IMG/VR virus record: IMGVR_UViG_3300048930_000242
Span: 1-64,000 of that record
Reading direction: 5' to 3' (one strand)
Origin: a virus
Length of the DNA stretch: 64,000 nucleotides
Made by a program: the position numbers and the translations under genes. The notes under the pieces are model-generated. The model did no database searches. It saw only the letters and a list, made by a program, of their open reading frames with translations, and was not told the origin of the DNA. Below are positions 3,652 to 49,096 of this stretch, piece by piece; the stretch's first letter is position 1; every line of letters begins with the position of its first letter.

Positions 3652-4737
3652 TTAATCGAAGAATGAACTCAAATCATCACATGTTTCTGGAACCGTTGTA
3701 ACCGCTCTGGCCACCTGTCTCTTTGAGATCAAATGAGGATTATCTCGGAGCCTAAAATAGATGCCGCACTGGCATAATCCGACTTCGGTTCCGTAGGTCT
3801 TCAACTCATTTTGATCTTCGGCGAAAATCTTGATTCCATTGGAAACAACATTATAGGTGGCCGGGTGAAACTTGTCTCGGAGACCTGGGAATAGTTCGTC
3901 TTGATTCTCCCTGATCCAGATCACTCGCTCTCCCATTGGGAACTCTTTCTCGGAGACTCCAGGGAAGATTTTGCCGAGTGTAAACTTCGCTCCGGGTCCA
4001 GGGGAGCAGAACGCTTCATCATGATTGAAAGGAAGACCCGGATTTACCGAATTCGAGGTTGCGCAGTGATAGCCATAGTAAGGACCAATGCCTCGAATCG
4101 ACCGAAGGTTGTCATACATATCTTTCAGTGTCTTGGACTCAATCAAGCGGTCCATCATTCCATCGTTCTTCCATGAAGCGATCCATTCCGCTACGGCCAA
4201 TGAACCAGAGGCCTTGGCGTCCGCCTCTGAGTAGGTTCTCTTCACGAACTTGTTGCCGGCATCCATGATTGAGGTGTGGAGTTCGGTGGTTCCCCAGAAC
4301 GGGAGTCCTTTTGCCTTTGACTTCGCGGTCTCTCCACGAAGCCAGGCTGTGTACTCTCCGATCTTGCCAGTCTTGGCGTAATCGAGCTGCTCCTTGGCCA
4401 GTGAATCGAAGTCCACCAGAGCGGTGTCTGGATCTTGATAGCCAGTCAAGACCGAGTGAATGCCGCGAGCTCCGTAGAAGTGTGAGATGATCGTGTTGCC
4501 GAGCTTGTTTTCCATAGAGAGACCAGGAGCGGTCACAATATGGTTCATGATGTAGACCATTCGGTCGTCGAGAGTGATCTGAGACGAGAAGTACTCAACT
4601 CCCTCTCCGAGAGCAGGAGAAGGAGCCTCATAGGCCGGAATGATACCACGAATGAAAAGGTTCCGCTCGTTGATTTTCTCTAGGAAGAAATGGAAATCTT
4701 CCAGAGCGGCCTTATCTAGTTTGCTTCTTGGATTCAT
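3652..4737 (-). CDS. aGPT-PPlase1 / amino-acid:DNA-transferase-like helical (HhH glycosylase fold) DNA-modification protein
   Basis: N-terminal F..I.ER..DDR, HhH-like RGIGPYYGY, PGPGA, C-terminal EVGLCQ.GIY; context in a modification cluster. Confidence 0.65.
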   Translation of the reverse strand: MNPRSKLDKAALEDFHFFLEKINERNLFIRGIIPAYEAPSPALGEGVEYFSSQITLDDRMVYIMNHIVTAPGLSMENKLGNTIISHFYGARGIHSVLTGYQDPDTALVDFDSLAKEQLDYAKTGKIGEYTAWLRGETAKSKAKGLPFWGTTELHTSIMDAGNKFVKRTYSEADAKASGSLAVAEWIASWKNDGMMDRLIESKTLKDMYDNLRSIRGIGPYYGYHCATSNSVNPGLPFNHDEAFCSPGPGAKFTLGKIFPGVSEKEFPMGERVIWIRENQDELFPGLRDKFHPATYNVVSNGIKIFAEDQNELKTYGTEVGLCQCGIYFRLRDNPHLISKRQVARAVTTVPETCDDLSSFFD

Positions 4738-5660
4738 ACCTTCCTGCTCTTGATATAGCTCTCGAGATAATCGGCCGGTTCGCCTTTCAAGAAGTCGGTG
4801 GCCATTTTCAAGACCTCCGGTTCATTCAGGTCGAGAGACCCAAGTTTCTTCTGGAGCTGGCGATCGCATGAGCGGTGTCGATTGAACATGTCTCGCTCTC
4901 GCCAATCCCACGGACGGGAGAATCCCATCTGCATGATATTGAATCCATGGAAAGTGCAGAATCCATGGTGAGTCCATACCGGCTGGAGATTACAGACCCA
5001 CATGTCGCCGGCGAATGTCTTGCCGAAAATCGTGAACCAGAGATGATTCAATCGCTCCGGCTTATTGAAGACATGAATCTCCAGAACGACCTGGCAAACC
5101 GAGTCCGGTAGCTTACGGTCGATCAGCTCAAACTCGGCGCCTTCAACATCACATTTGAGAATCCCAGGTTTCTCTTCCTCGATCATTTTGTGGAAGTCGA
5201 TTGCTGGGACTCTCTTGACGATGCGACCCTTGGTGATCGACTCTGGACGCTTGATCTCTCCAGAGAGTTTGTCGCCGGACTCCAGAACCAGGAAGTCAAC
5301 GAATGGATCGGAGCCGCGAATGGCGGCCGCATTATGGAGCTGGTAGGAGCCTTCGGCGAACTTGTTATTCAGCTTCAAGCAATCGAAATTGTCCTCGTCC
5401 GGCTCGATTCCAATGTAGTAGGACGCTCCTTGTTCTGCGGCCAGTCGGTTGAACGAACCGGCGCATGCTCCAAGGTCCATGACCTTTCGGCCTTCGAAGT
5501 CGAGGTGAGTGTAGGACCCGAGCTCTTTCAAGCTCGGGTGAAGGGCCTTGAGCTGGTTCGAATCATTAAGATGAAAGAAACCAGATGGGTCGATCAAGAT
5601 CTCCTGGCCAGATCTTGTGAAATGGCCAGAAGACTTCGCCTTTGACGAATTATGCTTCAT
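4734..5660 (-). CDS. FkbM-family SAM-dependent methyltransferase
   Basis: VMDLGACAGSF, GIEPDEDNF, HNAA, LKCDVEGAEFE, VLEIH. Confidence 0.85.
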   Translation of the reverse strand: MKHNSSKAKSSGHFTRSGQEILIDPSGFFHLNDSNQLKALHPSLKELGSYTHLDFEGRKVMDLGACAGSFNRLAAEQGASYYIGIEPDEDNFDCLKLNNKFAEGSYQLHNAAAIRGSDPFVDFLVLESGDKLSGEIKRPESITKGRIVKRVPAIDFHKMIEEEKPGILKCDVEGAEFELIDRKLPDSVCQVVLEIHVFNKPERLNHLWFTIFGKTFAGDMWVCNLQPVWTHHGFCTFHGFNIMQMGFSRPWDWRERDMFNRHRSCDRQLQKKLGSLDLNEPEVLKMATDFLKGEPADYLESYIKSRKV

Positions 5661-5675
5661 TATGATGTTTGCCCC

Positions 5676-6923
5676 TCAGTCGTAGTTGCTGATGCCGCAA
5701 TCCTTCAGAGCATTCAGGTTGGCCGCTCGGTACTCGGTGCCTGGAATGTACTCGTAGAACTCCGGAGCGATTCGGCAAGAGAGCAGATCGCATTCCTCAC
5801 GAGCCATCTGAGTAGGAAGGTCGATCGGAGGAGTCTTCTGAGTCCATGCCGACGGACCGATCAGCGGTCCGACCAAGCCGATCTCTCGAGCGACTTGTAC
5901 CAGTCGGATTGCGTCGCAGACCACCGCGGCCGAGTTCGGCGAGTCCTCGACCGAAAGGTCGGCAGTGAACTCGATCGGAGCACCACCCCAAGAAGTCGCC
6001 TTGATCAGGAAGTGAGCACGCTTGTTGTCTTTCAGAGCGGTGAAGTAGGCGGCCGGGCCGGCCTTGATCGTATGAGGCTTCACCTCGGCATGAGCGATCT
6101 TCGACTGGTTGACGATCACGTTCTCTTTGGACTTCTTCTTGGACTTGAGGCGGCCCTGGTCCTGCATGTTCAAGAAGTCGGTGTTACCGCCAACATTGTC
6201 CTGGTAATGCATGGTGACGTCGGCTCCACGAGCGAGGAAAAGCTCCTGAAGGACGGCCGAGATGATGCTCGCTCCGACGCAAGACCGCATGTCGTCTCCG
6301 ATCATCGGGATCCGTGCGTCGATGAACTTCTGAGCCCACTCCTTGTTCGAGCCGATGAAGACCGGAATGCAGTTCACAAACGAGATGCCGGTCTCCAAGC
6401 AGATCTCGGCCCAGAACTCGGTGGCCTTCTGAGAGCCGACCGGAAGGTAGTTCACAACAGCCGTGACGCCAAGTTCAACGAGATGGGCCTTGATCCGCTC
6501 CTTGGAGATCTGCTCTTCAAAATTTCCAAGCTCGTCTTCGTTGATGAATCCCTCGTTATAGGCCCAACGGAAATCACGAAAGGAGTGATCGCAGTCATGG
6601 GCGTACATATGGTTCGAGACTCCATCCATGATCGGAGCCGGTCGGACAATCGGGTCATTGAAATCCTCCGAGAAATTCTTGTGGAACTCCAGAGTACAGT
6701 TCGGCTTCTTGAAGATGGCCCAGGTCAATGGCTGGCCGATCTTCCGGAAGTCGACGTCGAATGCGGCCGCGACCTGGATGTCACGGGTCTCATAGCCGCC
6801 GATGTCCTTATGGATCACGCCGCAAGCGTCCGGAGTGTCTCGGTAGAAGTCCAGGCCTTGGACAAGTGAACTGGCGCAGTTGCCAACGCCGACGATTGCG
6901 ATCTTGATCTTTTTCCTGCTCAT
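5676..6923 (-). CDS. ino1: myo-Inositol-1-phosphate synthase
   Basis: GVGNCASSLVQG Rossmann motif, NYLPVGS, FVNCIPVFI, GDD, GGNTDFLNM, SKK.SK, DNK, EDSPNSA. Confidence 0.95.
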   Translation of the reverse strand: MSRKKIKIAIVGVGNCASSLVQGLDFYRDTPDACGVIHKDIGGYETRDIQVAAAFDVDFRKIGQPLTWAIFKKPNCTLEFHKNFSEDFNDPIVRPAPIMDGVSNHMYAHDCDHSFRDFRWAYNEGFINEDELGNFEEQISKERIKAHLVELGVTAVVNYLPVGSQKATEFWAEICLETGISFVNCIPVFIGSNKEWAQKFIDARIPMIGDDMRSCVGASIISAVLQELFLARGADVTMHYQDNVGGNTDFLNMQDQGRLKSKKKSKENVIVNQSKIAHAEVKPHTIKAGPAAYFTALKDNKRAHFLIKATSWGGAPIEFTADLSVEDSPNSAAVVCDAIRLVQVAREIGLVGPLIGPSAWTQKTPPIDLPTQMAREECDLLSCRIAPEFYEYIPGTEYRAANLNALKDCGISNYD

Positions 6924-6999
6924 GCTCGTTTCTCCTATTTCAGTTTCAAGTCATTGGGCGGCGAGCTGGCCGCAGTAGGACTTTGAGGTTGTAGTGATC

Positions 7000-7028
7000 A
7001 TTATACCACACCAGGTAGCCTTTGTAAA
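7000..7028 (-). promoter_or_regulatory. sigma70-type promoter TTTACA-N17-TATAAT for the ino1 operon
   Basis: Exact 17-nt spacer; -35 sits in the loop of a 13-bp perfect inverted repeat (7008-7020/7030-7042). Confidence 0.8.
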
Positions 7029-7057
7029 CGGCTACCTGGTGTTCTATCTAGTGATTT

Positions 7058-8308
7058 TTATTGGAAATAGCTGCTCATAGAAGAGAACTCGCCGGTGCTC
7101 TTCGTGGATCGGATCAAGTCCTGATGGACGTAGTCCGCACCGGAAAGAGGGAGCTCTCCGTTGACGTACTTGACGGCTTGCCCGACGAAGTACTCTCCGG
7201 TTGTGACCGGAACCGACTGAGGGATGTGAGGAACCGACTTGCGACCTTCCAGAAGTTCGAGGTCGATCGGAAGCCTCATGATGCACATCATCTCACGGAC
7301 ATTCAAGTACCGATTCTCATACGGGTGGGCGATGTTGTCGACACACTTTCCGGCGAAGGTGTTGTGGCGACCATCTGGATTGATGATGTAAGAGCCAGCA
7401 TAGTAATAGCCCATGCCGCGCTTGGTCTTCTCCATTGCGAGATTGACCTTGTAGCTGAAGTTCTTGACGCCATTGAACGGACCATCGCCGGTCCTCTCGA
7501 TGTAGTCCATGCACTCCTGGAACTTTCCGTTCTCGATCACCCACTCGATGGTAGCGATATGTTGATCGACCGGCACTACCTCGGTAGTGAATCGCTGATG
7601 ATCCATTCCGTGAAGGTCCAGAATGAAGCGATAGGCCGGATCGTAATAGGTGATTTCACCATGACGAACCGCGTGCTCTCGATTGAAAGGAGACAGAAGA
7701 GCCTCGTCGATGATCTCTCGGTAGGTCTTCATTTTGACCTTCGGAGCCTGCTCGATGAATGGAGCCGACTTCGAGTCCCAGAAGAAATAGAACGAACGGA
7801 GTCGGTTCTGTGGGAGTCCGTGGACCATCGAGTTGGTCAGTGCGGTTGAGAACGAGTACCCGTGGTCCTTGGCGATCTGCTTCAGAACGTCCAGCGTTCC
7901 CTTTCCTCTTGGCTGGACCAACCCAGGAGCATTCTCTCCGAGCATGACCTTCGGTCGGATTTGCTCGAGGACCAAGTTGGCGCTCTTGTACATCCACTGA
8001 TTCTGCTGAGCGGTCGCGCCGGAGCTGAGTGGATTCCGAGATGTGTTCAGCCTGGAGAGGCCGGCGCACGGGCAAAGAGCGGTAACGATGTCGATGTCGC
8101 CGCCGGCCATTCTGGCCTTCAGATCGTCGGTGAAACCAGACTCGTCGACCAAGTACCGAGGAACTTCCGGTCCGAAATAGTTGGTCAGATGAGATTCATT
8201 GGCATTGAATGCATTCCAAGAGACCATGAAATCCGGCTTGGTTCCGATCACATTCCGGGCGGCGATCGCCATTCCGCCGATAAGAGGTACGATAGCTGCA
8301 TGCTTCAT
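7058..8308 (-). CDS. Divergent C5-cytosine DNA methyltransferase fold protein
   Basis: Motif IV PCAGLS, VI ENAP, VIII HGLPQNRLR, IX RYLNVRE, X PQSVP; motif I is atypical (IVPLIGG). Confidence 0.8.
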   Translation of the reverse strand: MKHAAIVPLIGGMAIAARNVIGTKPDFMVSWNAFNANESHLTNYFGPEVPRYLVDESGFTDDLKARMAGGDIDIVTALCPCAGLSRLNTSRNPLSSGATAQQNQWMYKSANLVLEQIRPKVMLGENAPGLVQPRGKGTLDVLKQIAKDHGYSFSTALTNSMVHGLPQNRLRSFYFFWDSKSAPFIEQAPKVKMKTYREIIDEALLSPFNREHAVRHGEITYYDPAYRFILDLHGMDHQRFTTEVVPVDQHIATIEWVIENGKFQECMDYIERTGDGPFNGVKNFSYKVNLAMEKTKRGMGYYYAGSYIINPDGRHNTFAGKCVDNIAHPYENRYLNVREMMCIMRLPIDLELLEGRKSVPHIPQSVPVTTGEYFVGQAVKYVNGELPLSGADYVHQDLIRSTKSTGEFSSMSSYFQ

Positions 8309-9531
8309 GAAAAGAAATTCTCCACATTATGAGAGGTGAGCGACGAGTAATCATTCTGTCGATTATTGCGGATGTCCCAGAAGTAGAACTCCGGAGAGAG
8401 GTGAATGCCTCGTCCTTTCGTTGCTCCAGGTCGACCGGACTCCATGACCTCTGGATTGAAGCATCCTTTATGGTCTGTAAATCCGTCTGGCCACTTCAGG
8501 TAGTTCCAGCCCCGGAGCCGGCAACGATCTTCTAGTTTGTCCGACATATATCTACGGGCATAATCTCGTTGCGCCCAAGTGCCAGAGAAAGGCTGTAGCG
8601 GCCCATTGACCTGCTTTCCTTTCGCATTGGTGATCTTTGGAGCGAACATCACGGACAGTGAAATCGTTCTCGAATCGTCATTGATCGGGAACGGCTGGGC
8701 AATTGTAACTTCGTTGAGTTCCATTCCGAGAATCTGAGCGATGTAGTTGTTCACCAGATCATCAATGGTCTTTTCGACATCTGGGAACCGGCAAATATGA
8801 TGCCGAAGGTCGATGTTGCCGTAGTTGAAAATGCCACGGTTGAATCTCTTGGCCGCGCCTTTGAATACCGACTCAACGATCGCTTTGAATCCTCGCTTGG
8901 TCGCTCCGTGGAGAGTTTCACCTTTGCGGTAGATCAAAGCATGCCCCGGCCGCCAGCAAGAAAGTCCGTGTGAGTCGCCTAATACGAACCCATCATACCC
9001 TCCTTTGACCACCGAGTCCACCCAGGGGTCATAGAACTCTCTGGCTGCGCTGTCAGCTTCCGAATAGATCGAGTGATCCTCAAGGCGCTTACAGGCCGCC
9101 TCAAACAGTTCCAGAGTCGGAGTACCCTGCCATTCCGGCTTGCGAAGAGTGGTGGATGCTCTGTTCTTGAACTTGTCCGGGAACGGAAACTCAAGAGCGG
9201 TCGGATTCTTGCATTTCGCAATGGATTCCCAGCACTGATTGACTCCGTGAAGCCACCATTTATAGGTCTCCGGATCTTCGGACGCTCGGCCATATTCGTT
9301 CCAGTTCCATCCGCCGATCTCTGGGCCGCCGTAGGAGTCACCAAGGTGAATCAGTGTCTGGTGAATGCTTTGGTCTTGCATCAAATCCCATTGGTTGGCT
9401 GATGTGGTAACTTCGACATCACCAAATCCAAAGTCTCTCATTGCGGCGGCCATAATCTCCATACGACCGCGGAAGTGAGAGTTCCACTTGTTGGCAATAG
9501 GATTCGGCACACAAACGATAATAGATTTCAT
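8305..9531 (-). CDS. SGNH/GDSL-like protein of unknown function in the modification cluster
   Basis: VLGDSH, YGNIDLRHH, late GIHLSP His; ATGA overlaps with gp43 and the MTase. Confidence 0.5.
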   Translation of the reverse strand: MKSIIVCVPNPIANKWNSHFRGRMEIMAAAMRDFGFGDVEVTTSANQWDLMQDQSIHQTLIHLGDSYGGPEIGGWNWNEYGRASEDPETYKWWLHGVNQCWESIAKCKNPTALEFPFPDKFKNRASTTLRKPEWQGTPTLELFEAACKRLEDHSIYSEADSAAREFYDPWVDSVVKGGYDGFVLGDSHGLSCWRPGHALIYRKGETLHGATKRGFKAIVESVFKGAAKRFNRGIFNYGNIDLRHHICRFPDVEKTIDDLVNNYIAQILGMELNEVTIAQPFPINDDSRTISLSVMFAPKITNAKGKQVNGPLQPFSGTWAQRDYARRYMSDKLEDRCRLRGWNYLKWPDGFTDHKGCFNPEVMESGRPGATKGRGIHLSPEFYFWDIRNNRQNDYSSLTSHNVENFFS

Positions 9532-14144: not shown

Positions 14145-14381
14145 TTAGCAAGTGATACGAGTTGGGCAATCCATACGAGGGCATACATAGCCCATGACTT
14201 CTCCATTGGCTCCGATACCACAGACTGGGCAACCTCGAGGAAACGGAGGAACCGCCTGCGGCATGTATGGCGCCGGAAGGTGAGGGATCGGCCACTGATG
14301 AAGAGCCCGATCTAGACGCTCACGCAGCTCGTTGATCTGCCTCTGGAGGTCCTCGTTTGAGCTTGGCGGTTGGTCACTCAT
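14145..14381 (-). CDS. Small coiled-coil protein with a Cys cluster
   Basis: LQRQINELRERL; CPVC...CPRMDC. Confidence 0.6.
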   Translation of the reverse strand: MSDQPPSSNEDLQRQINELRERLDRALHQWPIPHLPAPYMPQAVPPFPRGCPVCGIGANGEVMGYVCPRMDCPTRITC

Positions 14382-14910
14382 AGATCTTCACTCCGACAAT
14401 AGACATATTCGGGATCACCTTGAGACGATCACAAGGCACGAACCGAGCCTTCTGCTTCTCAACCCACTCAGGAGGAACTCCATGGAGGTTCTCGAACTGA
14501 GTGTACATGTCGACCACGCAGACGCCGCAACCTTCCATCGCCGCAGCCATCTTGAAGTACGGAGAAAGCTCGAAGTCGCGAGTGAGAGTGTTCGCGACGA
14601 TACAGATCACTCCACGATACAAAGAACTACGAACATCAAGCTGCAAGCGACTATGAGCATATCCAAGTTGAGCTGGCTCGTACTTGTATACGCCGTCACG
14701 GACGAAGAAGTCGTCGGTCTCGAAGGTCTTCACTGGTCCAGAGTCGATGTTGCACAAGATCTGTTCCTTGATCTTCTGAGCCATGGTGCTCTTGCCGGAA
14801 CCAGAAGCTCCACGGACAAGGATCAGCCCGAACTGGCCGAAGTCGACGCCATACTCAGGATCGAGAGCCCGCTTGGCGGTAGTCGCGAACAACATCTCCA
14901 TAAACGACAA
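14374..14910 (-). CDS. P-loop kinase (AAA_33 / N4BP2-like)
   Basis: VRGASGSGKST, ETDDFF, IVANT, NLHGVP. Confidence 0.85.
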   Translation of the reverse strand: MSFMEMLFATTAKRALDPEYGVDFGQFGLILVRGASGSGKSTMAQKIKEQILCNIDSGPVKTFETDDFFVRDGVYKYEPAQLGYAHSRLQLDVRSSLYRGVICIVANTLTRDFELSPYFKMAAAMEGCGVCVVDMYTQFENLHGVPPEWVEKQKARFVPCDRLKVIPNMSIVGVKIYE

Positions 14911-47427: not shown

Positions 47428-47490
47428 GAGAGCTGGAGTCCTAGGTAAGAGTTTCTACTCCTATCTATTACTCCAGCTCTCTATTATAGG

Positions 47491-48063
47491 CTAAGACCAG
47501 ACTGCCTCTTTGAAGATTTCAAGAGGATCACGGAAGCTGCCATTGGCGTCTTGAGTGTAAACCATGGCCTTGTTCTTGATAATGCTTCGATTGAAGCCAT
47601 CGATGAACATCGCTTGCTCATTGTTGGCCTTCGAGACGTCAAATGACTTGCCGTCGTCTGGCAGCTTTCCTGGATTCGATGCGACCAGAAGAACCAGACG
47701 GATCTTGGTCTGGTTAAGAACACCGATTCCGCGGAAGAAAAGTTTCTCCATTTCGAAGACGTAGTCCCCGGAATAGCCACGGTAAAGCGGAGAGTAGACG
47801 AGTTCACCGAGATGGAATCTGTCAAAGATCAGCTTCGGGGTCTTGCTTTGCGGTAGCAGAACATTCTGAATCAGGCCAAAAGAGTTCTTGAACGACTCTC
47901 GCTGGTAGGTCTGAAGGTTTCCATTATAGCACTGGAGTCGCTTCGGTTTGTCGAATTTGATGGTCTGGTGGAAGCCGAGGCGGTCATTGATCGTCTCAAT
48001 GAGAGTGCCCTTTCCGACATTGTCGATGCCTTCGATAATGAAAATAGACGGTTCGCCGTTCAT
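47491..48063 (-). CDS. Thymidylate-kinase-like NMP kinase (candidate modified-dCMP kinase)
   Basis: IIEGIDNVGKGT, IFDRFHLGELVYSPLYRGY. Confidence 0.85.
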   Translation of the reverse strand: MNGEPSIFIIEGIDNVGKGTLIETINDRLGFHQTIKFDKPKRLQCYNGNLQTYQRESFKNSFGLIQNVLLPQSKTPKLIFDRFHLGELVYSPLYRGYSGDYVFEMEKLFFRGIGVLNQTKIRLVLLVASNPGKLPDDGKSFDVSKANNEQAMFIDGFNRSIIKNKAMVYTQDANGSFRDPLEIFKEAVWS

Positions 48064-48065
48064 GA

Positions 48066-49025
48066 TCAGAAGCCCTCATCAAGCGGGATTTGGAGTAGAT
48101 TCTCGTCCTTTTCTTCGGCCGCTTCGGATGCCTTGTACCACTGGCCGATGCTAGGCGCGAAGAATCTGACAAGCCATTCATAGTTGGTCAATTCGGTGGC
48201 ACGACTTGGTGGCACTATGTTATACCTAGTGAGACCGGAAACGAACACGAACAAGTGATTCTTGAACGAAAAAGCATCTCGACTCTCTTCTTGGAAAACA
48301 GAATTAGCGTGCGGATTGAACTCGTCTTTGTTCCAATGCTTTTCGTAGATGTGAAGAGAGCCGGCATTGTGGTAGTAATCGCCTAGCTTCAGATTGTTCA
48401 TTCCGCGGCGGAACTTCAAGACTGCGTACATCATCCAGGCGATGAACTGGAACTGAAGGATGTCATTGCACCAGCCGACCACCAAATCGTTTGACCGCAT
48501 GTTCACGATCATATGGAGTTCATCGTTGCGGATCAAGAACTGGAGAGAAAGCGTACATGGGGTGTCTTTTGGATTGAGACCGGAATTGTCGACTCCGTGG
48601 ATGTTGATGATCGCCTTTCTGGACTGAGGATCGGCAGCCAGAAGGTTCACGCAGTTGTCGAAGCGAGAGATCAATTCGGAGCTTGAACCGTTAGAGAGCC
48701 CTTCATGCTCAGCGAAAATCCAGTACCCGTAATTCGAGATCACATTTCCGCTGCCATCCTTAAGCGTATCCCAGAAAGGAGCGGACTTGGAGATTCCGGC
48801 CGCTTTCAAGCTCTTCGACATGTACCAATTGAACTCGTCGATAACATACGACGGCTTCAGTTTCCTGGAGCCAAGAGTGACCACCAATGGATCGTTGAGA
48901 TCGAAAAACATTCGTGAGGCGATCACTTCTTTCGATCTGGTGCCGCGAGTCTCAACCAGAAAGCCGTCTTCCAAGATATTTTGGCCGGCTTTCTGGTACA
49001 TTTCGTTCACAATACTCATACTCAC
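48066..49025 (-). CDS. gp42: dCMP hydroxymethylase-like (TS fold, dCMP-specific)
   Basis: EFNWY, SNYG, PCT catalytic Cys, MRSNDLVVGWCND (Asp at the TS Asn177 position, as in T4 gp42), SLHIYEKH. Confidence 0.8.
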   Translation of the reverse strand: MSMSIVNEMYQKAGQNILEDGFLVETRGTRSKEVIASRMFFDLNDPLVVTLGSRKLKPSYVIDEFNWYMSKSLKAAGISKSAPFWDTLKDGSGNVISNYGYWIFAEHEGLSNGSSSELISRFDNCVNLLAADPQSRKAIINIHGVDNSGLNPKDTPCTLSLQFLIRNDELHMIVNMRSNDLVVGWCNDILQFQFIAWMMYAVLKFRRGMNNLKLGDYYHNAGSLHIYEKHWNKDEFNPHANSVFQEESRDAFSFKNHLFVFVSGLTRYNIVPPSRATELTNYEWLVRFFAPSIGQWYKASEAAEEKDENLLQIPLDEGF

Positions 49026-49059
49026 TCCTTCTCATGTTCACAGTTCAGCACTTCGGACT

Positions 49060-49088
49060 ATTGTATCATAGTCCGAAGTGCTTGTAAA
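49060..49088 (-). promoter_or_regulatory. Promoter TTTACA-N17-TACAAT within a 15-bp palindrome
   Basis: Arms 49047-49061 and 49068-49082; -10 overlaps the loop. Confidence 0.8.
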
Positions 49089-49096
49089 TGGGCTTC

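What the first reader, a model, noticed from the sequence alone, without database searches (positions are those of the whole stretch)
47491..49025. Displaced dCMP-modifying enzyme plus kinase: the cytosine half of the pathway
Seen: RSNDLVVGWCND places Asp at the position that separates dCMP enzymes (T4 gp42) from dUMP enzymes (TS Asn177). The pair sits in the late structural region with its own early-type promoter, about 38 kb from the cluster above. Inference: the AADT-like protein, whose characterised relatives act on hmU, would here act on a cytosine derivative. The product could be hm-dCMP, m-dCMP or hydroxy-dCMP, and the kinase could act on the nucleotide or on DNA.
Basis: partly seen in the sequence, partly recalled or inferred. 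Interest (0 to 1): 0.7.

Follow-up and report, generated by a model that had tools for sequence, protein, structure and literature searches.

The report
Phage hydroxymethyl-dCMP synthase plus nucleotide kinase
Two adjacent genes in an uncultured T4-like phage most likely make 5-hydroxymethyl-dCMP and phosphorylate it, as T4 does with gp42 and gp1; this is ordinary chemistry, but it shows that the phage's unusual DNA-decoration genes must work on cytosine and not on thymine.

Summary
On the minus strand, 48066-49019 encodes a thymidylate-synthase-fold enzyme and 47491-48063 a 190-aa P-loop kinase, two bases apart, between tail-fibre/baseplate and lysis genes. A sigma-70/T4-early-type promoter (TTTACA-17-TGaTACAAT) overlaps a 15-bp-stem hairpin just upstream.

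The enzyme carries every published marker of a T4-type dCMP hydroxymethylase. In E. coli ThyA numbering these are D177 (cytosine), D143 and the S-x-Y motif (hydroxymethyl, not methyl), D169 (not the flavin 5-hydroxy-dCMP type) and S167/R126' (deoxyribose).

The kinase has a thymidylate-kinase/YorR fold. In 77 of 80 viral loci found through the kinase, a D143/D169/D177 synthase lies within 10 kb. The neighbours are usually guanylate-kinase-like, beta-glucosyltransferase and NTP-pyrophosphatase genes, never aGPT-Pplase genes. It is most likely an hm-dCMP kinase, not a DNA kinase.

The rest of the genome holds a canonical ThyA, a gp1-type dNMP kinase and a PRA-PH pyrophosphatase. It has no dUMP hydroxymethylase, TET or dCMP deaminase.

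"Displaced" needs one correction: the enzyme belongs to a jumbo-phage lineage, not to the gp42 clade that sits beside polB in related phages. I could not confirm that the 408-aa protein is AADT-like. This scan had already noted similar gp42-like plus kinase modules in other genomes.

The parts
48066..49019 (-). Thymidylate-synthase-fold enzyme (317 aa from the ATG at 49019; the ORF listing gives 319 aa from the GTG at 49025). Predicted dCMP 5-hydroxymethylase.
   Evidence: PF00303 at 8.9e-25. Best PDB sequence hit is T4 gp42. Diagnostic residues D143/C146/T147/D169/D177 match T4 gp42. The model has pLDDT 91.5; its best fold match is MilA, Z 24.8.
47491..48063 (-). 190-aa P-loop kinase with a thymidylate-kinase/YorR fold. 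Predicted 5-hydroxymethyl-dCMP (dNMP) kinase. It starts 2 bases after the synthase stop codon.
   Evidence: Weak PF02223 and phrog_761 hits. The model has pLDDT 95; fold matches are YorR at Z 15.1 and thymidylate kinases at Z 13-14.3. 77 of 80 kinase-centred viral loci have a D143/D169/D177 synthase within 10 kb.
49060..49088 (-). Sigma-70 / T4-early-type promoter-like site: TTTACA, 17 bases, TACAAT, preceded by TGa.
   Evidence: It fits the PeSL promoter consensus TTTACW-N17-TAYWAT of the PST/T4 phage pair.
49047..49082 (.). Perfect 15-bp-stem hairpin with a 6-base loop. It overlaps the promoter spacer and -10 box, and lies directly after the stop codon of the upstream tail-fibre-like gene.
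   Evidence: one of 22 perfect hairpins with stems of at least 10 bp in 153 kb.: -29.1 kcal/mol, z -8.9.
49025..49030 (-). Shine-Dalgarno sequence AAGGAG, 5 bases before the ATG at 49019.
   Evidence: Read directly from the sequence.
47428..47481 (.). Long hairpin (12-bp outer stem plus an inner stem) between the kinase stop codon and the next gene's GTG. It closes the two-gene cassette.
   Evidence: -37.7 kcal/mol, z -7.2.
3652..9531 (-). Context, not part of the pair: the cluster between uvsX and polB. It holds an aGPT-Pplase clade-1-like protein (Pfam HMUDK_hel, no P-loop), an FkbM methyltransferase, an inositol-3-phosphate synthase, a C5-cytosine-methylase-like protein and a 408-aa protein of unknown family. 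This is the presumed consumer of hmC in DNA.
   Evidence: A promoter of the same type lies at 7028.

Best explanation
The two genes form a pre-replicative cassette that supplies hydroxymethyl-dC nucleotides.

The first protein is a folate-dependent dCMP 5-hydroxymethylase of the T4 gp42 kind. Its Cys155 attacks C6 of dCMP, methylene-tetrahydrofolate donates the carbon, and water activated by Asp152 adds to the exocyclic methylene to give 5-hm-dCMP.

The second protein is a thymidylate-kinase-fold NMP kinase that converts 5-hm-dCMP to the diphosphate. A host NDP kinase and the phage B-family polymerase would then place hmC in DNA. A PRA-PH pyrophosphatase elsewhere in the genome may deplete dCTP.

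The pair is expressed from its own sigma-70/T4-early-type promoter, although it sits among late structural genes.

Shown: the sequence and fold features, the gene associations and the genome inventory. Inferred: the substrates, the product, the timing of expression and how far C is replaced in the DNA.
For: Enzyme:
- T4 gp42 is the best solved relative and hits this gene much better than it hits the phage's ThyA (7.5e-25 against 2.3e-8).
- The enzyme has D177, T147, D143 and D169, as T4 gp42 does. RB69 gp48, a 5-hydroxy-dCMP synthase, has N169. M6 gp58, a dUMP hydroxymethylase, has N177. The phage's own ThyA has L143/H147/N177.
- The meaning of these positions comes from PMC13326640, PMC8670742, PMC6400193 and PMC5175136.
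- The T4 hydroxymethylation signature E60/S94-x-Y96/D145 and the deoxyribose determinants S167/R126' are kept.

Kinase:
- It has a P-loop with the TMPK-type Asp and a DRF motif, and a TMPK/YorR fold.
- The association is obligate-like: 77 of 80 kinase loci have such a synthase nearby, in three different gene arrangements.
- The neighbours are nucleotide-pool and glucosylation genes: guanylate-kinase-like in 58 loci, beta-GT in 19, PRA-PH in 13 and gp56-like in 3. None has an aGPT-Pplase or 5-HMUDK gene.
- In L077 the kinase and synthase are adjacent inside a glycosyltransferase cluster.

Genome and promoter:
- The genome holds ThyA, a gp1-type DNMK and PRA-PH.
- The promoter class is described.
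Against: - No biochemistry exists for this clade. The nearest characterised enzyme is about 30% identical.
- The phage also has a gp1-type dNMP kinase (C1:101464-102156), which in T4 and RB69 is sufficient to phosphorylate the modified dCMP. A second kinase is therefore not obviously needed.
- The analogous 'nucleotide kinases' of RB69, DLP3 and RL38J1 are untested.
- The kinase lacks an Arg-rich LID and scores below the Pfam cut-off for PF02223 (18.4 against 27).
- The genome has no recognisable 5-HMUDK, which leaves room for a DNA-level role.
- Many of the 80 loci are close relatives of one another, so the count overstates the number of independent observations.
Confidence: 0.7

Rival explanations
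1. The kinase is simply a dTMP or broad dNMP kinase that boosts the nucleotide supply. It has no special link to hydroxymethyl-dCMP, and the gp1-type kinase handles hm-dCMP as in T4.
For: The fold and motifs are those of thymidylate kinases. The genome has a gp1-type DNMK and a ThyA that produces dTMP. RB69 gp159, a gp1 homologue, alone phosphorylates the modified dCMP.
Against: The family travels with D177-type synthases in 77 of 80 loci and through three gene orders, not with ThyA. None of those loci has a gp1-type kinase within 10 kb, and many have a separate guanylate-kinase-like gene. This looks like a division of gp1's jobs between two enzymes.
Confidence: 0.13
2. The kinase works on DNA. 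It would phosphorylate the hydroxymethyl group of hmC after replication, playing the part of 5-HMUDK, so that the aGPT-Pplase-like proteins of the polB-side cluster can displace the phosphate with a cyclitol or another nucleophile.
For: The genome has no PF18748 5-HMUDK domain. The 'HMUDK_hel' protein has no Walker A motif. M6 gp54, the true DNA kinase, is also a small P-loop protein with weak thymidylate-kinase and dNK hits.
Against: There is no PF18748 hit at E<=1 and no significant match to M6 gp54. None of the 80 kinase-centred loci carries an aGPT-Pplase, AADT or HMUDK gene; they carry beta-GT and nucleotide-pool genes instead. A second phage with the inositol synthase plus Pplase1-like pair has a gp42-type enzyme but not this kinase, although it is only 88% complete. 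Another small P-loop ORF at 14374-14910 is an alternative candidate.
Confidence: 0.1
3. The enzyme acts on dCMP but makes a different product: 5-hydroxy-dCMP (the flavin/O2 type, as in RB69) or 5-methyl-dCMP (as in Xp12).
For: D177 alone does not fix the product. The fold's best match, MilA, was also the best match for the RB69 and DLP3 5-hydroxy enzymes.
Against: All tested 5-hydroxy-dCMP synthases have Asn at position 169. This enzyme and all 120 homologues have Asp. Methyl-forming enzymes are reported to have a bulky hydrophobic residue at position 143; this one has Asp, plus the S-x-Y water-holding motif.
Confidence: 0.05
4. The enzyme is a dUMP hydroxymethylase, and the phage hypermodifies thymine as M6 and ViI do.
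For: aGPT-Pplase-type genes have so far been characterised only on hmU.
Against: Asp stands at position 177 in the query and in all homologues. The M6 dUMP hydroxymethylase keeps Asn, and so do the SPO1 dUH and TS. N177D and D179N swaps are reported to switch the base preference.
Confidence: 0.02

Closest known systems
Phage T4 gp42 dCMP hydroxymethylase with gp1 dNMP kinase (and gp56 dCTPase)
   Same: Same fold and the same catalytic and specificity residues (E60, S94/Y96, D145, C148, D171, D179). The pathway logic is the same: hm-dCMP is made and then phosphorylated. In T4 too, the kinase gene (gene 1) sits among late tail genes.
   Different: Identity is only about 30%, and the enzyme falls in a separate clade, sister to jumbo-phage enzymes. 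It has a roughly 85-residue C-terminal helical extension like MilA's. The partner kinase has a TMPK fold and is unrelated to gp1, although a gp1 homologue exists elsewhere in the genome. No gp56 or beta-GT homologue was found.
RB69 gp48 / DLP3 gp80 5-hydroxy-dCMP synthases with the cluster 'nucleotide kinases' RB69 gp45, DLP3 gp78 and RL38J1 gp214 (Lee et al., NAR 2026, PMC13326640)
   Same: A D177 thymidylate-synthase homologue lies next to a small TMPK/YorR-fold kinase, in phages that also have a gp1-type kinase. The kinases give the same structural hits (3kb2, 4s35). The window's kinase shows weak similarity to RB69 gp45 (27% over 106 aa, pairwise E 1e-5).
   Different: Those enzymes have N169 and use a flavin with O2. 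This one has D169, so hydroxymethylation is predicted. The role of their kinases is also untested.
MilA, the CMP 5-hydroxymethylase of mildiomycin biosynthesis (PDB 5jnh, 5b6d)
   Same: Best structural match: Z 24.8, rmsd 2.6 A over 253 residues, including the C-terminal helices. It also has D177 and D143.
   Different: MilA has Ala176 and Lys133', which favour ribose. The phage enzyme has the Ser and Arg of deoxyribose-specific enzymes.
PeSLs, the composite promoter/stem-loop motifs of T4-like phages (Arbiol 2010; Comeau 2014, PMC4122927)
   Same: The promoter fits TTTACW-N17-TAYWAT and is joined to a strong stem-loop at the border of a non-core gene module inside a conserved block.
   Different: Here the stem-loop overlaps the spacer and the -10 box and does not precede the promoter. 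Only three strict copies exist in this genome, and no recombination role is shown.

Membership tests
T4 gp42-type dCMP hydroxymethylase (thymidylate synthase superfamily) | Thymidylate-synthase fold with the catalytic Cys (EcTS C146 / T4 C148) | tested here: met
   PF00303 scores 87.8 bits against a cut-off of 24.3. Cys155 is aligned and invariant. The fold matches at Z 22-25.
T4 gp42-type dCMP hydroxymethylase (thymidylate synthase superfamily) | Asp at the EcTS Asn177 / T4 Asp179 position (cytosine recognition) | tested here: met
   Asp186 in the 317-aa numbering. It is Asp in 120 of 120 homologues. The M6 dUMP hydroxymethylase and ThyA have Asn.
T4 gp42-type dCMP hydroxymethylase (thymidylate synthase superfamily) | Hydroxymethylation signature: Asp three residues before the Cys (EcTS L143 / T4 D145) plus Ser-x-Tyr (T4 S94/Y96) and the conserved Glu (T4 E60) | tested here: met
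   D152, S95-N-Y97 and E62 are all invariant in alignments A1 and A3. The signature is defined in PMC6400193.
T4 gp42-type dCMP hydroxymethylase (thymidylate synthase superfamily) | Deoxyribose determinants: Ser at EcTS 167 and Arg at EcTS 126' (MilA has Ala and Lys) | tested here: met
   The S of RSND and R134 of SRK.
T4 gp42-type dCMP hydroxymethylase (thymidylate synthase superfamily) | Orthology with the gp42 clade of T4-like phages, which sits in the polB-side slot | tested here: not met
   In the tree, T4 gp42 groups (100/100) with the enzymes in the slot beside polB. The query lies in another starred clade, next to jumbo-phage enzymes. This is the same kind of enzyme from a different lineage.
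T4 gp42-type dCMP hydroxymethylase (thymidylate synthase superfamily) | Formation of 5hm-dCMP from dCMP and CH2-THF | not testable with these tools
   Needs an enzyme assay or LC-MS.
5-hydroxy-dCMP synthase (RB69 gp48 type) | Asn at the EcTS Asp169 position | tested here: not met
   The query and 120 of 120 homologues have Asp; RB69 gp48 has Asn. The criterion comes from PMC13326640.
Canonical thymidylate synthase (ThyA) | N177, L143 and H147, with a score at the NCBIfam equivalog level | tested here: not met
   The query has D, D and T at these positions. NCBIfam scores are 62 bits or less against cut-offs of 108-427. A true ThyA lies at C1:137853-138638.
Thymidylate kinase (PF02223 / TMPK fold) | Family score above the curated cut-off | tested here: not met
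   18.4 bits against 27, N-terminal 33 residues only. TIGR00041 scores 16 against 83.
Thymidylate kinase (PF02223 / TMPK fold) | Fold, a P-loop with an acidic residue (E-G-x-D-x-x-G-K) and a DR(Y/F) motif | tested here: met
   Z 13-14.3 to thymidylate kinases and 15.1 to YorR. G12, D14, G17, K18 and R82 are invariant.
T4 gp1 dNMP kinase (PF21448) | Sequence membership | tested here: not met
   No Pfam hit and no BLASTP similarity to T4 gp1. The genome's gp1 homologue is a different gene.
5-hmdU DNA kinase (PF18748, M6 gp54 type) | Sequence membership | tested here: not met
   No hit at E<=1. The family is absent from the genome. BLASTP against M6 gp54 is not significant.
PeSL promoter/stem-loop cassette border | Early promoter consensus joined to a stem-loop at the edge of a variable gene module | tested here: inconclusive
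   The consensus and the stem-loop are present. The layout differs, and neither recurrence nor a recombination role is shown.

The most novel reading that the evidence does not exclude
The hmC supplied by this cassette is the substrate of the polB-side cluster (aGPT-Pplase-like proteins, inositol-3-phosphate synthase, FkbM methyltransferase, C5-methylase-like protein). That would be the first case of Pplase/AADT-type group transfer to cytosine rather than thymine, possibly giving a cyclitol-linked hmC. Asp-type synthases next to relatives of the 408-aa protein, a PLP enzyme and MazG in other viral contigs (L032, L045, L050, L065, L067, L072) suggest that such cytosine pathways are widespread.
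Probability: 0.35. Interest if true: 0.8.

Novelty: new member of a known kind. Interest (0 to 1): 0.4.

Why it matters
On its own the pair repeats the T4 pattern of making hm-dCMP and then phosphorylating it.

Its main value lies in what it rules out. The genome's only hydroxymethylase is of the cytosine type, so the unusual cluster beside polB cannot be a thymine hypermodification pathway of the kind described so far.

The work also defines a virus-specific family of thymidylate-kinase-fold kinases. This family is almost always linked to dCMP hydroxymethylase genes, and in many large phages it seems to take over gp1's role. The published RB69, DLP3 and RL38J1 clusters list the same kind of kinase without a tested function, so one assay would annotate a large family.

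Tried and rejected
- DNA search of the phage collection (blastn) found nothing.
- A single-sequence scan of viral contigs found nothing; an alignment was needed.
The contigs of the closest homologues (55-60% identical, from Logan/ENA) could therefore not be fetched. Their linkage of synthase and kinase rests only on matching contig lengths.
- The kinase has no sequence match to any solved structure.
- MazG PF03819, dUTPase PF00692, dUTPase_2 PF08761, dCMP deaminase PF00383, TET/JBP PF12851 and HMUDK PF18748 are all absent from the genome.
- T4 gp56 and beta-GT give no tblastn hit.
- Base composition gives no sign of recent acquisition: GC 0.49 against 0.51 for the genome.
- TATAAATA late promoters do not occur anywhere in the genome, so T4-style late promoters could not be mapped.
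- AADT-likeness of the 408-aa protein was not confirmed. It has no Pfam hit even at E<=10, BLASTP against M6 gp51 is not significant, there is no PDB sequence hit, and the Atlas scores of 0.86 are leads only.
- I first took Pfam 'HMUDK_hel' to mean a kinase. I rejected that after finding no P-loop and after reading that M6 gp55 is the dispensable clade-1 Pplase paralogue.
Full report
**What is there.** The window is the first 64 kb of a complete 153,340-bp uncultured T4-like phage genome with direct terminal repeats. It encodes gp41, UvsX, gp43, gp61, gp2, gp3 and gp4 homologues. On the minus strand, 48066-49025 is an open frame with a thymidylate-synthase domain, and 47491-48063 is a 190-aa P-loop protein. 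The synthase most likely starts at the ATG at 49019, five bases after AAGGAG. The GTG at 49025 lies inside that Shine-Dalgarno sequence, and the collection's own gene call is 317 aa. The kinase ATG follows the synthase stop codon after two bases.

**Surroundings.** The genes upstream are a tail-fibre-like 414-aa protein, a 1988-aa virion protein and baseplate wedge proteins. The genes downstream are small ORFs, an SLT transglycosylase and head-tail adaptors. The statement that the pair sits in the late structural region, 38 kb from the polB-side cluster, is correct.

**The enzyme's substrate and product.**
- The best solved relative by sequence is T4 dCMP hydroxymethylase (E 4.8e-22), ahead of MilA and all thymidylate synthases.
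- T4 gp42 hits this gene at 7.5e-25 but the phage's ThyA only at 2.3e-8.
- Published work gives residue tests in E. coli ThyA numbering:
  - N177D marks cytosine substrates.
  - An acidic residue at 143, with the Ser-x-Tyr pair, holds and activates the water that makes hydroxymethyl and not methyl.
  - D169N marks the flavin/O2-dependent 5-hydroxy-dCMP synthases of RB69, DLP3 and others.
  - Ser167 and Arg126' mark deoxyribose as opposed to ribose.
- In my alignments the query reads D143, C146, T147, D169, D177, exactly as T4 gp42. RB69 gp48 reads E143, N169, D177. The M6 dUMP hydroxymethylase reads D143, N147, D169, N177. The phage's own ThyA reads L143, H147, D169, N177.
- E62, S95-N-Y97, S176 and R134 are also kept.
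- All 120 closest homologues share the D/T/D/D pattern.
- The AlphaFold model (pLDDT 91.5) matches MilA best (Z 24.8, rmsd 2.6 A, 253 residues), including the two C-terminal helices that T4 gp42 lacks. Thymidylate synthases follow at Z 22-23.6.
- I conclude that the product is 5-hydroxymethyl-dCMP. This is inference from residues; no enzyme of this clade has been assayed.

**Genome inventory.**
- A canonical ThyA (414 bits) lies at C1:137853-138638.
- A 150-aa PRA-PH all-alpha NTP pyrophosphohydrolase lies about 0.8 kb away at C1:139407-139859. Its homologues sit in the hmC modules of large phages. It is a candidate dCTPase, untested.
- A gp1-type dNMP kinase (PF21448, 55.6 bits) lies at C1:101464-102156.
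- There is no dCMP deaminase, dUTPase, MazG, TET/JBP, T4 gp56 or beta-glucosyltransferase homologue.
- The D177 enzyme is therefore the only route to a 5-hydroxymethyl pyrimidine in this phage.

**The kinase.**
- Sequence searches give only weak thymidylate-kinase hits and no solved relative.
- The family alignment shows an invariant P-loop with the acidic residue typical of thymidylate kinases (E-G-x-D-x-x-G-K), then D-R-F-H-L-G-E, Y-R-G-Y and D-D-G-K-S-F.
- The model (pLDDT 95) matches B. subtilis YorR (Z 15.1, rmsd 2.6-2.8 A) and thymidylate kinases (Z 13-14.3). Lee et al. report the same hits for the cluster 'nucleotide kinases' DLP3 gp78 and RB69 gp45.
- The window's kinase weakly resembles RB69 gp45 (pairwise E 1e-5). 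It does not resemble T4 gp1 or the M6 5-hmdU DNA kinase gp54.
- The Atlas places it among virus-dominated clusters of thymidylate-kinase-like proteins.

**Association evidence.**
- Starting from the synthase, at least 18 large-phage contigs carry a kinase homologue 3.5-5.5 kb downstream. Two T4-like contigs (L077, L082) have kinase and synthase adjacent inside a glycosyltransferase cluster.
- Starting from the kinase, 77 of 80 viral loci have a synthase with the D/T(C)/D/D pattern within 10 kb. The three exceptions are loci cut short on one side.
- Three gene orders occur: kinase then synthase adjacent, synthase then kinase adjacent, and the two separated by a ClpX-like gene and a helicase. 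The link has therefore survived rearrangement.
- Around the kinase lie guanylate-kinase-like genes (58 loci), T4 beta-glucosyltransferase homologues (19), PRA-PH (13) and gp56-like genes (3). None has an aGPT-Pplase, AADT, 5-HMUDK or gp1-type gene.
- This pattern fits a nucleotide-level role. In those phages the TMPK-like and guanylate-kinase-like enzymes seem to share the jobs that gp1 does alone in T4.
- Many loci are close relatives, so the counts are not independent events.

**The DNA-kinase rival.** It deserves attention in this genome.
- Pfam calls the protein at 3652-4737 'HMUDK_hel', but it has no Walker A motif.
- In M6 that domain is gp55, the clade-1 aGPT-Pplase paralogue, which was dispensable in reconstitution. 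The real DNA kinase is the P-loop protein gp54 (PF18748).
- PF18748 is absent from this genome. If the cluster needs a phosphorylated hydroxymethyl group, some other kinase must supply it.
- Against the TMPK-like kinase filling that role are the association data above. In addition, a second phage (G001, 159 kb, 88% complete) has the inositol synthase plus Pplase1-like pair and a gp42-type Asp enzyme 45 kb away, but no homologue of this kinase. There is also another small P-loop ORF at 14374-14910 with weak AAA_33 similarity.
- I give this rival about 0.1.

**'Displaced'.**
- Related T4-like contigs keep the order polB, synthase, C5-methylase-like gene, uvsX (L060, L066, L079 and others), as T4 keeps 43, 42, beta-gt, uvsX.
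- In the maximum-likelihood tree those slot enzymes group with T4 gp42 (100/100).
- The query sits in a separate starred clade with P0002-P0011, next to the jumbo-phage enzymes.
- The phage therefore did not move its gp42. It carries a different lineage of the same kind of enzyme, together with its kinase, as a two-gene cassette.
- Composition gives no sign of recent arrival.
- T4 itself keeps gene 1 among tail genes, so a nucleotide kinase in a late region has a precedent.

**Promoter and borders.**
- The 77-base gap upstream (49020-49096, between the upstream stop codon and the ATG) holds TTTACA-17-TGaTACAAT, the best sigma-70-like site in 6.6 kb.
- Only three strict matches exist in the genome. 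All are intergenic, on the coding strand and preceded by TGn. One of them stands before the inositol synthase gene of the polB-side cluster.
- With a relaxed -35 there are 8 sites against 0.5 expected. The others stand before replication and nucleotide genes, including the PRA-PH/ThyA region.
- The sites fit the T4-type PeSL promoter consensus TTTACW-N17-TAYWAT.
- A perfect 15-bp-stem hairpin overlaps the spacer and the -10 box. A second strong hairpin follows the kinase stop codon.
- The cassette thus has its own early-type signal and structured borders. Timing and any role in recombination are inferred, not shown.

**What I could not confirm.** The 408-aa protein at 8305-9531 matches only PHROGs of unknown function. 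It gives no Pfam ADDT hit even at E<=10, whereas M6 gp51 scores 1.4e-46. BLASTP to M6 gp51 is not significant. Relatives of this 408-aa protein do lie 2.5-3.5 kb from Asp-type synthases in six viral contigs. In L065 a PLP-type enzyme and a MazG gene lie between them. This hints at cytosine pathways of the Pplase kind, but the family assignment remains open.

**Verdict.** The pair is a new member of a known kind. Its importance is as the anchor for the claim that this phage's unusual modification cluster acts on cytosine. Earlier notes of this scan describe the same stretch and similar gp42-plus-kinase modules in giant phages.

Noticed in passing
window 14374-14910 (-): A 178-aa P-loop ORF (Walker A GASGSGKST) in the early region between regA and polB. 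It has only weak AAA_33-type hits and a borderline local match to the M6 5-hmdU DNA kinase P-loop. It is an alternative candidate for a DNA-base or polynucleotide kinase.
   Followed up: partly
window 7058-8308 (-); also L043, L052, L060-L068, L077-L080, L122, L144: A roughly 400-aa C5-cytosine-methylase-like protein is conserved next to uvsX and near gp42-type enzymes in many T4-like viral contigs (32-35% identical). In phages that put hmC into DNA, an ordinary C5 methylase would have little substrate, so it may do other chemistry at C5.
   Followed up: no
window 7008-7042 and 7000-7028 (-): A second promoter/hairpin composite lies before the inositol-3-phosphate synthase gene. TTTACA sits in the loop of a 13-bp-stem hairpin and TGgTATAAT follows 17 bases later. 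This is the same promoter type as before the synthase-kinase pair.
   Followed up: partly
window 3652-4737 (-): The protein that Pfam labels 'HMUDK_hel' has no P-loop. It corresponds to M6 gp55, the clade-1 aGPT-Pplase paralogue, so the Pfam name is misleading for annotation. The genome has no PF18748 kinase domain.
   Followed up: yes
P0034, P0042 (homologues): Some Asp-type synthase homologues are fused to a dCMP/cytidine deaminase domain (467-485 aa). This suggests a route from hm-dCMP to hm-dUMP, or a way of balancing pools, in other viruses.
   Followed up: no
window 48066-48100 (-); alignment A1: The closest clade of the synthase ends in a conserved acidic tail (I/F-P-L/F-D-E-G-F/V). In this genome its codons (GAT GAG GGC TTC) also provide the GAGG that could serve as the kinase's ribosome-binding site.
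   Followed up: no
whole genome (G000): The T4 late-promoter motif TATAAATA does not occur once on either strand in 153 kb, so late promoters of this phage must have a different sequence.
   Followed up: no
L065 6493-10540 and L032, L045, L050, L067, L072: Small viral contigs carry relatives of the window's 408-aa protein, a PLP-type enzyme and a MazG gene beside an Asp-type (D143/D169/D177) synthase. The layout recalls the M6/PaMx11 thymine clusters but has a cytosine-type hydroxymethylase.
   Followed up: partly
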